From Escherichia coli (GTDB lineage: Bacteria; Pseudomonadota; Gammaproteobacteria; Enterobacterales; Enterobacteriaceae): a DNA stretch of 64,000 bases. Within the stretch, counting starts at the first letter, position 1. Each line of letters starts with the position of its first letter. Made by a program: the position numbers. Location: NCBI RefSeq assembly GCF_009931435.1, contig NZ_CP043414.1. One strand, 5' to 3'. Below, one piece after another: positions 12,001 through 15,000 of the stretch.

Positions 12001-15000
12001 ACAAAAGGGAAAAGGAACCGTTCCATTCCGTTAGATGATGAACTGCTGGCTGAACTACCCGAAACAAAAGGCGCTCTGTTTCCAAAGCCCTGCTATAACG
12101 CTTTCCGTTCCGCTCTGGAACGTGCTGGCATTGAACTACCAGCAGGTCAGCTTACCCACGTACTACGCCATACATTTGCCAGCCACTTTATGATGAACAG
12201 CGGCAACATTCTGGTTCTCCAAAAAATCCTCGGCCATGCCGATATCACTATGACAATGCGGTATGCGCATTTCGCCCCAAGCCACCTTGAAGACGCTGTG
12301 CGACTTAATCCCTTAAAATGCCGCAGCAGCTTAGAAATACTGTCGAGTACCAAAACATAAACAACAAAGATAAAAGGTCTCTAACCTGTTTTCAGCAACA
12401 ACCACTGGAGGAAAACAACAACAATGTAGATTAAAGTTACAGACCCCAGAAACAGCAATAGTTGACAAAAATGAATAAAGGCCGGATGGTGAAGTTTTTG
12501 AGGAACCAAGGTTATATTTCGTGCAATTCCTTCTTTACATCTCACTGTGAGCAACGCGGGTAAGTCAGTATTTATCGACATAACCTCACATCGTATAGAT
12601 TCATGTGGTGCAAGATAATCAAACAACATAACCTGCCTTTCTTCGGCATCACTCTTAATTGTGTAATGCCTTGAGGGCCAAATGTTTACGTACATAGGTG
12701 GGTAATTGAAAATTATCTCCACATTAGTAGCAGGTTCTTTTCCTTCGTTTTTAAAGGCATAGGATTTTGTATGCACCACCTGTTTTGCCTTAACAATTTC
12801 ACCTTCAGCATTACGTAACGGCTCGTTAATTAAATAGCTATATTGGTGAAGCTCTCCATAGCAAATTTTCGCTCCATTTTTAAAAATCTTATTGATAAAT
12901 AAGGTAAAAACAGGAACGAAAAGTGCAAATATTTCTTTCCCATACTGAGTAAGTATATTCATTACTTGTCCACAAAAAGTTGAAATGGTTACCCACCGTG
13001 TTCCTAAAGCAGTCGTTCACCCTACTCTAGTTCTTAGAATAGAAATTCTACATAACTTCAAGCAGCTAACTCAACATAACAATTGAAAAGGTAATCACTC
13101 TGTAAGCGTACCCATTTTAATTTCAGCCGCTTTCTGGCTTGCAGCCGCTACCCCCGCATTGCGCGGTGCATTTCGCCCCAAGCTACCTTGAAGAAGCTGT
13201 ACGCTTAACCCCTTAAAATGTCGCAAAATTGTCGCGACAGCTTAGAAACACTGCCGAATACTCACGAATATTAACTAACGTAACTTATTGATAACACTGT
13301 AAGTTACTGTTTTTCGTAGATAGTTAATGCTTTATAATATAGCCTGTGCTATATCTGTATGTAATGCAATCATCCCTCAAGGATCGACGGGATTAGCAAG
13401 TCAGGAGGTCTTATGAATGAGTTCAAGAGGTGTATGCGCGTGTTTAGTCATTCTCCCTTTAAAGTACGGTTAATGCTGCTCTCTATGTTGTGCGATATGG
13501 TCAACAACAAACCGCAGCAAGATAAACCTTCCGATAAATAGCGGCGTCGCGGTACGCCGCTTCACTCCTGCTTTTATGCAGGCACAACGCGTTTTGCTCT
13601 GAAAAACCCCACTTTTTGTCGGATTTGCAATCCCCTTCGCAAAAGATTTGTTCGTCAGTAGTTGACCTGAACGGCAGCTCGCTCTATCTTCTTGCAGCCC
13701 TGCGTATATTGCGGCTCGCGGATGCGGACCCTTTTCCCCTCTTCACGCACTCTTGCAGGTATTGACCCTTGACGCCAGGGTAAGCACATGGCGTTTGTTA
13801 CGATAGTGGCATATGAATTTAACCCTCAAAGAATCGCTTGTTACCCGTAGCCGGGTATTTAGCCCGTGGACTGCGTTCTACTTTTTACAGTCGCTATTAA
13901 TTAACCTCGGCTTAGGTTACCCCTTCAGTTTGCTATACACCGCCGCATTTACGGCTATTTTGCTTTTGCTATGGCGAACATTGCCTCGCGTGCAAAAAGT
14001 TCTGCTCGGCGTCAGTTCACTGGTCGCCGCTTGTTATTTCCCTTTTGCACAGGCCTACGGCGCGCCTAACTTCAATACCTTGCTGGCATTGCATTCCACC
14101 AATATGGAAGAGTCGACCGAAATCCTGACGATTTTTCCGTGGTACAGCTACCTGGTCGGCTTATTTATTTTTGCGCTCGGCGTAATAGCAATCAGGCGGA
14201 AAAAAGAGAGCGAAAAAGCGCGCTGGAATACCTTCGACAGTCTGTGTCTGGTATTCAGTGTGGCGACATTTTTTGTTGCTCCCGTGCAAAATCTGGCCTG
14301 GGGCGGCGTATTTAAACTGAAAGATACTGGCTATCCGGTATTTCGTTTTGCTAAGGATGTCATCGTCAATAATAACGAGGTGATTGAAGAGCAAGAACGG
14401 ATGGCAAAACTTTCCGGAATGAAAGATACCTGGACGGTCACTGCCGTTAAGCCGAAATATCAGACCTATGTGGTGGTGATCGGTGAAAGTGCGCGTCGCG
14501 ATGCCCTCGGTGCCTTTGGCGGTCACTGGGATAATACCCCGTTTGCCAGCAGCGTTAACGGTTTGCTTTTTGCTGACTATATTGCCGCCAGTGGCTCCAC
14601 GCAGAAATCGCTTGGCTTAACACTCAATCGCGTAGTCGATGGCAAACCACAGTTTCAAGATAACTTTGTCACCCTGGCAAATCGCGCGGGCTTCCAGACC
14701 TGGTGGTTTTCCAACCAGGGTCAAATCGGCGAATACGATACCGCTATCGCCAGCATCGCCAAACGGGCAGATGAAGTGTACTTCCTGAAAGAAGGTAATT
14801 TTGAAGCAGATAAAAACACGAAAGACGAAGCGTTACTGGATATGACCGCTCAAGTGCTGGCACAAGAGCACTCGCAACCGCAGCTGATTGTTCTACATCT
14901 GATGGGCTCACATCCACAGGCCTGCGACCGGACACAAGGCAAATACGAAACCTTTGTGCAATCGAAAGAAACGTCGTGCTATCTCTATACCATGACGCAA

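What the first reader, a model, noticed from the sequence alone, without database searches (positions are those of the whole stretch)
12381..12962. AT-rich cargo gene between the prophage integrase and the prophage end
A 193-aa ORF with a C-terminal transmembrane anchor is convergent with int and sits just inside the prophage boundary. P2-type phages normally have no gene between int and att. Its AT-rich composition contrasts with the phage core. Prophage-end cargo of this kind frequently encodes superinfection exclusion or anti-phage functions.
Basis: inference. Interest (0 to 1): 0.55.

Follow-up and report, generated by a model that had tools for sequence, protein, structure and literature searches.

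The report
Membrane-protein cargo gene at prophage end
A real, horizontally acquired single gene wedged between the integrase and the attachment site of a P2/186-like E. coli prophage encodes a membrane-anchored beta-sandwich protein from a large, unnamed family that rides on phages and islands; it is a plausible but untested phage-exclusion factor.

Summary
Window 12381-12962 (-) is a genuine 193-aa gene, convergent with int (20 bp between the stop codons). It lies 370 bp inside attR (core TATAATATAGCC, 13333-13344) of a Peduoviridae prophage inserted between mntR and mntS. Its GC is 36.6%, against 50.7% for the phage.

It sits in an 817-bp insertion (12351-13167) flanked by an imperfect duplication of the int 3' end. 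Sister prophages at the same site lack the insertion (23 of 29 E. coli carriers).

The protein has an N-terminal hydrophobic helix, a beta-sandwich and a C-terminal TM helix. Flanking charges place the sandwich in the cytoplasm. There is no Pfam, NCBIfam or PADLOC match, and only weak PHROG matches.

It belongs to a family of at least 613 clusters that always occurs as a solitary gene. In P2-like phages it usually sits after the last tail gene, next to attP. It also occurs on ICEs and islands, in two defence islands, and alone where a prophage has decayed. It is under strong purifying selection.

Cargo status is solid. An anti-phage role is circumstantial only, at about 0.4. This is an ordinary kind of feature (an att-proximal moron) carrying an uncharacterised protein family.

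The parts
10680..11303 (+). CI-type repressor of the prophage. RefSeq annotates the shorter form, equivalent to 10722-11303.
   Evidence: PHROG transcriptional repressor, E 6e-29. Annotated 'phage repressor protein' in the identical prophage of NZ_CP106924.
11305..12360 (+). Tyrosine integrase (int_A type, 351 aa). It is intact, including the RYAH catalytic-Tyr motif.
   Evidence: PHROG integrase, E 4e-73. Translation. 85-87% nt identity to the int of sister prophages at the same site.
12267..12350 (+). Copy A of an imperfect direct repeat. This is the functional last 28 codons of int plus the stop.
   Evidence: Direct repeats D1 and D2, 80-81% identical to 13168-13261.
12351..13167 (.). 817-bp inserted cassette (38% GC), made of the ORF plus 205 bp of unique upstream DNA. 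It is absent from sister prophage L002, where int runs straight into the att arm.
   Evidence: Window 10001-12350 and 13169-13900 both align to L002, overlapping on L002 3001-3094. GC. Homology to other family members is confined to the CDS.
12381..12962 (-). The cargo gene: a 193-aa protein with an N-terminal hydrophobic helix (about 3-27), a beta-sandwich (about 33-142) and a C-terminal TM helix (about 160-192).
   Evidence: (AF2 pLDDT 84.8).
13045..13074 (-). Sigma-70-like promoter candidate for the ORF (TTGAGT-18-TAGAAT). It is weak evidence only.
   Evidence: 9/12 match, and the number of such sites in the region is no higher than in shuffles.
13168..13261 (+). Copy B of the repeat: a frameshifted remnant of an int_B-type 3' end. 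It contains ATGTCGC-type repeats (13217-13240), which also occur in the attL arm, so it is probably the retained attP arm.
   Evidence: It is 95% identical to L002 here, against about 85% for the int body. The arm-site function is an inference.
13333..13344 (.). attR core TATAATATAGCC, 69 bp upstream of the mntS start codon.
   Evidence: Shared by attL and attR of the identical prophage and by the empty site.
13413..13541 (+). mntS, the first host gene beyond the prophage.
   Evidence: RefSeq annotation of identical loci.

Best explanation
The ORF is a single-gene cargo cassette (moron) of a 186/HP1-like Peduoviridae prophage integrated between mntR and mntS.

How it probably arrived: recombination inserted it just behind int. 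That event duplicated the last ~28 int codons. The upstream copy keeps int intact. The old, now frameshifted, copy survives as part of the att arm.

What it encodes: a small inner-membrane protein whose beta-sandwich is held at the membrane by an N-terminal and a C-terminal hydrophobic helix. The flanking charges place the sandwich on the cytoplasmic face, with only a few conserved residues (YGKE at the N end, LKTG at the C end) reaching the periplasm.

Most likely role: a host-protective factor expressed from the prophage that excludes other phages at the inner membrane. It could do so in either of two ways:
- by interfering with genome entry (superinfection exclusion, like T4 Imm or HK97 gp15);
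- by sensing infection with the cytoplasmic domain and collapsing the membrane through its helices (abortive infection).

Shown here: that the gene is real, the cassette boundaries, the fold, the family, its mobility, and its retention.

Inferred: topology, expression in the lysogen, and any anti-phage activity.

Confidence that it is mobile cargo encoding a membrane protein is about 0.95. The 0.4 below refers to the anti-phage role.
For: Cargo status:
- 6 of 5426 complete E. coli genomes carry it, always with int_A. 23 other genomes have a related prophage at the same site with int directly at attR.
- The insertion is flanked by an int-3' duplication.
- GC is 36.6% against 50.7%.

Real protein:
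- 41 clusters (at 90% identity) of close homologues, nearly all 193 aa, and 613 clusters at 50% identity.
- pN is about 0.2 and pS about 0.8.
- The AF2 model is confident: helix, beta-sandwich, helix.

Topology: across 151 family members the net charge is N-tail -0.65, after helix 1 +2.9, before helix 2 +1.3, and C-tail +0.5.

Mobility as a solitary module:
- The gene lies within 600 bp of the contig end in 8 of 11 IMG/VR prophage contigs.
- In P2-like phages of Escherichia, Yersinia, Ewingella, Pantoea and in high-GC (Pseudomonas-like) contigs it always lies in the interval between the gpD-like gene and int, on either side of attP.
- It also occurs on a Pectobacterium ICE about 400 bp from a Gabija pair, on P4-type integrase islets and next to BrnTA and a resolvase.

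Defence neighbourhood:
- Pandoraea: AbiGi, then the homologue, then PDC-S31, then a PDC-S25/ThsA-like gene.
- Geomesophilobacter: the homologue is immediately followed by PDC-S31.
- PDC-S49 lies between the homologue and int in L025.

Retention: there is a full prophage next to ybjL in Ewingella. Only the solitary gene remains at that position in Edwardsiella tarda and Yersinia massiliensis. It also survives in degraded Lelliottia prophage remnants.
Against: - No match to any PADLOC 2.0 model even at E<=10.
- No Pfam or NCBIfam match. PHROG matches are weak and of unknown function.
- Most neighbours tested have no defence annotation. Only about 4-5 of roughly 20 distinct contexts contain recognisable defence genes, so the association is weak and was not tested statistically.
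- The promoter evidence is not above chance.
- No terminator separates the ORF from the convergent int.
- The topology rests only on the positive-inside rule. The N-terminal hydrophobic core of this copy is just 13 residues.
- No expression or phenotype data exist.
Confidence: 0.4

Rival explanations
1. A lysogenic-conversion or MGE cargo membrane protein with a function unrelated to phages. Examples would be immunity or tolerance to membrane-targeting toxins (T6SS, T7SS/LXG, bacteriocins), or an envelope or stress role that benefits the host.
For: Foldseek shows the same TM-sandwich-TM architecture as proteins named DUF3592. One DUF3592 gene sits in an LXG toxin cluster of S. suis (PMC12482557). 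Another is predicted to be a cofactor of a mycobacterial mannosyltransferase. The Pectobacterium copy lies near an Hcp gene and a large unknown gene. Most contexts lack defence genes. Retention after prophage decay fits any host benefit.
Against: No adjacent toxin or effector recurs across contexts. No family member matches the DUF3592 Pfam HMM. The strong association with temperate-phage att regions and some defence islands is more typical of inter-phage conflict genes.
Confidence: 0.25
2. A phage life-cycle accessory protein, expressed late with the tail operon. Possible roles include lysis timing, a membrane step of assembly or ejection, or blocking re-adsorption or re-injection into the lysing cell. 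Under this reading it is not a host-protective moron.
For: In most P2-like phages the gene is on the same strand as, and directly downstream of, the last tail gene. The gap is 26 bp in L029 and 103 bp in L009.
Against: It is absent from 21 of the 29 E. coli prophages of this lineage. In the window it is separated from the tail genes by attP and an opposing gene. It occurs without any phage on an ICE, on islets, in defence islands and as a solitary chromosomal gene. There is no PHROG structural or lysis match.
Confidence: 0.15
3. A membrane toxin or addiction module that stabilises the element. The hydrophobic helices would damage the membrane when the element is lost or when the gene is overexpressed.
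For: It is a small two-helix membrane protein on many MGEs. TA genes are nearby in some contexts: BrnTA, HipA_C and PIN_8.
Against: No conserved adjacent antitoxin or small partner ORF was seen across contexts. A conserved ~110-aa folded domain under purifying selection is atypical for simple membrane toxins. Solitary chromosomal copies are stably kept.
Confidence: 0.1
4. A chance ORF, or a decaying fragment in AT-rich junk DNA left by recombination at the int end.
For: It lies in a recombination scar. One of the six E. coli copies (NZ_LR778146) has a 583-bp version that gives a 210-aa product.
Against: Length is conserved at 582 bp across genera. There are 613 clusters at 50% identity. Non-synonymous change is four-fold lower than synonymous change. 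The AF2 fold is confident.
Confidence: 0.02

Closest known systems
DUF3592 (Pfam PF12158) membrane proteins
   Same: Full-length Foldseek matches (E 1e-13 to 1e-16, TM-score 0.6-0.7) to ~190-aa bacterial proteins with the same layout of N-terminal TM, beta domain and C-terminal TM. One 70%-identical UniProt entry carries the DUF3592 name.
   Different: None of 46 diverse family members matches the Pfam DUF3592 HMM even at E 0.1. Sequence identity to the named DUF3592 hits is 16-25%. DUF3592 itself has no known function, so the link gives no mechanism.
Lysogenic-conversion and anti-phage genes of P2-like phages (old, tin, fun/Z; the P2/P4/K139 hotspots of Rousset et al. 2022, PMC9122126)
   Same: A variable, horizontally exchanged cargo slot in an otherwise conserved P2-like genome. 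Neighbouring slots in relatives hold defence-like genes: PDC-S49, and a TIR-like gene between cI and int.
   Different: The slot is different: it flanks attP, between the gpD-like tail gene and int. It is not one of the hotspot loci described in that paper: the P2 hotspot that carries old and tin, the P4 psu-int slot, or the K139 cI-int slot. The protein is unrelated to any PADLOC model.
Small inner-membrane superinfection-exclusion proteins (T4 Imm, HK97 gp15, P22 SieA; from established literature)
   Same: A phage-encoded small membrane protein, a single gene, with no enzymatic motif. Such proteins are typically expressed from the prophage. This is the proposed mode of action.
   Different: No sequence match in PHROGs. 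This protein has a ~110-aa beta-sandwich that those proteins lack. No phenotype is known.
Membrane effectors of abortive-infection systems with TM helices plus a beta-rich domain (e.g. CBASS Cap15; from literature cited in PMC9122126)
   Same: Hydrophobic helices combined with a small cytoplasmic beta-rich domain that could act as sensor or oligomerisation module.
att-proximal morons of P2-like phages in general (e.g. sopE of SopE-phi, ctx of phiCTX; recalled from literature, not tested here)
   Same: A foreign-composition single gene next to attP of a P2-like prophage.
   Different: Those encode secreted virulence factors. This one encodes a membrane protein of unknown function.

Membership tests
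Prophage moron / att-proximal cargo gene | Lies inside the prophage boundaries | tested here: met
   The attR core is at 13333-13344. The empty site aligns only from 13325.
Prophage moron / att-proximal cargo gene | Present or absent among otherwise collinear sister phages | tested here: met
   6 of 29 E. coli prophages of this lineage carry it at the int end. L002 and 22 others have int abutting attR.
Prophage moron / att-proximal cargo gene | Composition atypical for the phage | tested here: met
   36.6% GC against a 50.7% mean. The lowest 582-bp phage window is 43.5%.
Prophage moron / att-proximal cargo gene | Own promoter and terminator, and expression in the lysogen | tested here: inconclusive
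   One 9/12 sigma-70-like site at 13074-13045, not above the shuffle expectation. No terminator before the convergent int. Expression cannot be tested with these tools.
Known or candidate anti-phage defence families (PADLOC-DB 2.0) | Match to a family HMM | tested here: not met
   0 families at E<=10.
Defence gene by guilt-by-association | Family members enriched next to known defence genes | tested here: inconclusive
   Positive contexts: Gabija; AbiGi, PDC-S31 and PDC-S25; PDC-S31; PDC-S49. Most other neighbours have no hit. The sample is about 20 contexts and there was no background statistic.
DUF3592 (PF12158) | Match to the Pfam HMM | tested here: not met
   No hit for the query or for any of 19 + 46 family members.
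DUF3592 (PF12158) | TM, beta domain, TM architecture and fold | tested here: met
   Foldseek afdb50 gives full-length matches to proteins named DUF3592, with TM-scores of about 0.6-0.7.
Phage structural, lysis or known superinfection-exclusion families (PHROGs) | Match to an annotated PHROG | tested here: not met
   Only phrog_21131 (E 0.007, 26 residues) and phrog_35868 (E 0.2), both of unknown function.
Integral inner-membrane protein with a cytoplasmic domain | Two membrane-spanning helices and positive-inside charge bias | tested here: inconclusive
   The C-terminal helix is clear (KD up to 2.5). The N-terminal core is 13 residues in this copy and longer in the family. The charge bias of +2.9/+1.3 on the domain side across 151 members favours a cytoplasmic domain. 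No dedicated topology predictor or experiment was available.

The most novel reading that the evidence does not exclude
The 193-aa protein would be the founding example of a new, widespread single-gene anti-phage family. The family has at least 613 clusters at 50% identity in Proteobacteria, Desulfuromonadota and Chlorobiota, and is absent from Pfam and PADLOC. A cytoplasmic beta-sandwich clamped to the inner membrane by two helices would sense or block incoming phage. The gene is disseminated mainly through the attP-flanking cargo slot of P2-like phages, and in some lineages it is paired with PDC-S31.
Probability: 0.3. Interest if true: 0.6.

Novelty: new member of a known kind. Interest (0 to 1): 0.4.

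Why it matters
If the gene protects lysogens, it adds a compact one-gene membrane module to the defence catalogue. It would also mark the attP-flanking interval of HP1/186-like Peduoviridae as a further cargo hotspot worth mining. Neighbouring slots there already hold PIN_8, PDC-S49, TIR-like and several unknown genes.

The int-3' duplication shows concretely how a phage can take on cargo behind int without losing either the integrase reading frame or the att arm.

If the gene has no phage phenotype, it remains a well-conserved orphan membrane family on mobile elements whose benefit is unknown.

Tried and rejected
Database and structure searches that gave nothing useful:
- Pfam on the protein and on 19 and 46 relatives, NCBIfam and PADLOC at E<=10: no hits.
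- PHROGs: only weak matches of unknown function.
- PDB sequence profile search: nothing.
- BFVD viral fold library: nothing informative.
- Rfam on 11000-14500: no RNA family.
- tRNA scan of the window: none, so this is not a tRNA att site.

Literature:
- Searches for DUF3592, PF12158 and vB_YenM_324, and for P2-like superinfection exclusion by inner-membrane proteins, gave no functional data on this family.

Hypotheses considered and dropped:
- A conserved partner gene. None recurs across contexts, apart from PDC-S31 in two distant loci. tblastn with those two PDC-S31 proteins found no copy in any other locus or in the window.
- A tandem-prophage origin, with an att core between int and the ORF. 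No core-like sequence exists in the 20-bp gap, so this scenario is not favoured.

Searches that could not be run as planned:
- Broad alignments (A2, A4) were too divergent for the search for related loci.
- The genome-contig scan with A3 returned only 9 loci.
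Full report
1. What is at the coordinates

The genes to its left are a 186/HP1-type lysogeny module:
- a Fil-family gene and a CII-like activator (9831-10334, -);
- a Cox/Apl-like excisionase (10365-10619, -);
- a CI repressor (10680-11303, +);
- a tyrosine integrase (11305-12360, +).

These are identified by PHROGs and by the RefSeq annotation of a 99.9%-identical locus. int and the ORF converge, with 20 bp between their stop codons. To the right lie mntS (13413-13541), opgE and ompX.

2. Prophage boundary

Nearly all of 5426 complete E. coli genomes match the query only from the mntS side. An empty site (L003, mntR-mntS) aligns with the window from 13325 onward. In the identical full prophage (L018, about 31 kb, mntR|attL...attR|mntS), attL and attR share TATAATATAGCC, which lies at window 13333-13344.

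The ORF is therefore 370 bp inside the right prophage end. There is no tRNA in the window. The att site is intergenic, 69 bp upstream of mntS.

3. It is an insertion relative to sister phages

Twenty-nine of the 5426 genomes carry this integrase family at this site. Six have the window's int_A type (>=99% identical), always followed by the ORF. Twenty-three have an int_B type (85-87% nt identity) that runs straight into the att arm.

Aligned to such a sister (L002), window 10001-12350 and 13169-13900 both match, overlapping on the same 94 bp of L002. So 12351-13167 (817 bp, 38% GC) is extra DNA. It is bracketed by an imperfect direct repeat of the int 3' end: 12267-12350 versus 13168-13261, about 80% identical with a 10-bp indel.

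The left copy completes an intact int (351 aa, catalytic RYAH retained). The right copy is a frameshifted 28-codon remnant. That remnant and the rest of the arm are about 95% identical to L002, while the int body is only about 85%, so there is a mosaic junction here.

The remnant carries ATGTCGC-type repeats (AATGTCGCAAAATTGTC). These recur in the attL arm as AATGTCGCAAAAATGTC and are missing from the int_A 3' end. I infer that the remnant is retained because it is part of the functional att arm. This was not tested.

4. Composition and coding reality

The ORF is 36.6% GC (GC3 34%). The prophage part of the window is 50.7%, and the lowest 582-bp phage window is 43.5%.

Forty-one clusters (at 90% identity) of close homologues, 43-99% identical and nearly all 193 aa, occur in Escherichia, Yersinia, Edwardsiella, Rahnella, Ewingella, Lelliottia, Citrobacter, Pantoea, Pectobacterium and Scandinavium. 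A profile search of 1.84 billion representatives finds 613 clusters with E<=1e-3, nearly all 180-200 aa.

Between genera the gene keeps its 582-bp length. pN is about 0.2, while pS is about 0.8 and saturated. It is a real gene under purifying selection.

5. The protein

AlphaFold2 with the family alignment gives a confident model (pLDDT 84.8): helix 3-27, a nine-strand beta-sandwich 33-142, and helix 160-192.

Hydropathy clearly supports the C-terminal helix as a TM segment. The N-terminal hydrophobic core is only 13 residues in this copy but longer in most relatives.

Across 151 members the charge distribution is: N-tail net -0.65, the 12 residues after helix 1 +2.9, the 13 before helix 2 +1.3, and the C-tail +0.5. 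By the positive-inside rule the sandwich is cytoplasmic and both short termini face the periplasm. This is an inference.

Invariant or near-invariant positions are H39, N72, G74, A78, F85, N86, P89, W95, P96, R109, E121, P135, R141 and G173. Within the closer relatives the termini YGKE and LQWL-KTG are also conserved.

6. Similarity searches

- No Pfam, NCBIfam or PADLOC match, even at permissive thresholds, for the query or for 19 and 46 relatives.
- PHROGs gives only two weak matches of unknown function.
- No PDB sequence relative.
- BFVD gives nothing useful.
- Foldseek against AFDB50 finds full-length matches to ~190-aa bacterial proteins of the same helix-sandwich-helix layout. Many are named 'DUF3592 domain-containing' and share 16-25% identity.

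DUF3592 has no known function. The only mentions found are a gene in an S. suis LXG toxin cluster (PMC12482557) and a predicted mannosyltransferase cofactor in mycobacteria (bioRxiv 10.64898/2026.07.15.738315).

7. Where the family lives

In P2-like phages the gene always occupies the interval between the last tail gene (gpD-like) and int. It is on the gpD strand and convergent with int, and attP can lie on either side of it.

At the tail end of the prophage:
- Yersinia phage vB_YenM_324 gp38;
- an E. coli 60% homologue directly after the gpD-like gene;
- Ewingella;
- IMG/VR contigs L021, L022 and L024;
- two E. coli strains with a prophage at the same mntR|mntS site, where a 70% homologue sits with a PIN_8 gene at the attL end.

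At the int end:
- the window and L019;
- L023, with one ORF between the gene and int;
- L025, with PDC-S49 between them.

In 8 of 11 IMG/VR contigs the gene lies within 600 bp of a contig end. High-GC (Pseudomonas-like) P2-like contigs have it 26 bp after gpD (L029), or in the cargo block after gpD (L028). DNA homology between copies stops at the CDS, so the gene moves without a fixed flank.

Outside phages:
- a Pectobacterium integrative element with a relaxase, where the gene is about 400 bp from a GajA/GajB (Gabija) pair and near an Hcp gene;
- P4-type-integrase islets;
- next to BrnTA and a resolvase;
- a Pantoea plasmid;
- a Pandoraea defence island ordered AbiGi, homologue, PDC-S31 (28 bp downstream), then a PDC-S25/ThsA-like gene;
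- Geomesophilobacter, where the homologue is immediately followed by another PDC-S31.

Other neighbours tested have no PADLOC hit. No partner gene recurs.

8. Retention

Ewingella has a complete prophage ending gpD-like gene, 88-aa ORF, homologue, then ybjL. Edwardsiella tarda (six genomes) and Yersinia massiliensis have only the solitary homologue next to the same ybjL gene, with no detectable phage genes. Lelliottia keeps it beside a degraded int-CI-Cox-CII remnant.

The gene therefore outlives its phage repeatedly, which argues for a benefit to the host. One of the six E. coli int-end copies is frameshifted (583 bp, 210-aa product).

9. Interpretation

Cargo status is secure. The function is unknown.

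The reading that best fits is a prophage-borne inner-membrane factor that excludes other phages, either at genome entry or by abortive membrane collapse. It accounts for:
- the att-proximal moron position;
- spread across unrelated mobile elements as a solitary gene;
- occasional defence-island residence;
- persistence after prophage decay;
- a membrane-clamped small domain with no catalytic signature.

I put this at about 0.4. The defence-database result is negative, the neighbourhood signal is patchy and not statistically tested, and no expression or phenotype data exist.

Rivals:
- a host-benefit membrane function unrelated to phages, such as toxin immunity (0.25);
- a late phage accessory function co-transcribed with the tail genes (0.15), weakened by the many phage-free copies and by its absence from most sister phages;
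- an addiction toxin (0.1);
- a spurious ORF (0.02, effectively refuted).

10. Novelty and score

An AT-rich single-gene moron next to attP of a P2-like prophage is a known kind of feature. What is new is the protein family, which is unnamed in Pfam, NCBIfam and PADLOC, and the documented use of both sides of attP as a cargo slot in this lineage. The neat int-3' duplication that accommodates the insertion is also new. Interest is 0.4. It would be about 0.6 if a defence phenotype were shown.

Noticed in passing
window 13300-13412 (attR core 13333-13344): The prophage is inserted in the short mntR-mntS intergenic region, 69 bp upstream of the mntS start. The core sits inside an AT-rich, partly palindromic stretch (AATAGCTATATAATATAGCCTGTGCTATAT in the empty site). 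The insertion replaces everything upstream of the core, so mntS promoter or MntR-operator function may be altered in lysogens.
   Followed up: no
L018 7257-9276 (left end of the same prophage, outside the window); L039 2449-3861: The opposite (attL / gpD-like gene) end of this prophage carries two other unknown cargo genes (411 aa and 84 aa) with no PADLOC or NCBIfam hit. Sister prophages at the same site instead carry a PIN_8-domain gene plus a 70% homologue of the ORF there. Both flanks of attP are variable cargo slots.
   Followed up: partly
L043 10610-11542 and L042 10581-11477: In two very distant members (Pandoraea and Geomesophilobacter, 38-39% identical to the query) a PDC-S31 candidate-defence gene lies immediately downstream on the same strand. 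This may be an optional two-gene arrangement. It was not seen in any other locus.
   Followed up: partly
L016 4885-5775; L041 6257-7168; L004 1190-1888: Relatives of this phage in Lelliottia, Pantoea and Yersinia carry an extra gene between cI and int. It is TIR-like in two cases (PADLOC Effector/TIR, E about 1e-7). This matches the K139-type cI-int hotspot described by Rousset et al. 2022.
   Followed up: partly
L005 8001-8582; L040 10001-10582; L049 8001-8582: Solitary homologues sit next to ybjL (an Asp-Al_Ex transporter gene) in Edwardsiella tarda and Yersinia massiliensis. In Ewingella the same position holds a full P2-like prophage ending with the homologue. An Rpn/YhgA-like gene lies just upstream in Y. 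massiliensis, identified by eye only.
   Followed up: partly
NZ_LR778146.1 1831358-1831940 (P0002): One of the six E. coli copies of the ORF is 583 bp and is annotated as a 210-aa product (91% identity over 90% of the query). It appears to be a frameshifted allele.
   Followed up: no
window 33650-37652, 48600-51000, 55964-60397: There are three further low-GC islands (29-39% GC) in the host part of the window. Two encode large proteins with weak SopA-like HECT-type E3 ligase and pentapeptide-repeat matches (33650-35662 -, 55964-58261 -). Each of these is next to an unknown ORF of about 550 aa (35967-37652 +, 58745-60397 +). uvrB is at 60556-62577.
   Followed up: partly
window 12361-12380: No terminator-like structure separates the convergent int and ORF. 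Transcripts of the cI-int operon and of the ORF would overlap antisense, which could couple their expression.
   Followed up: no
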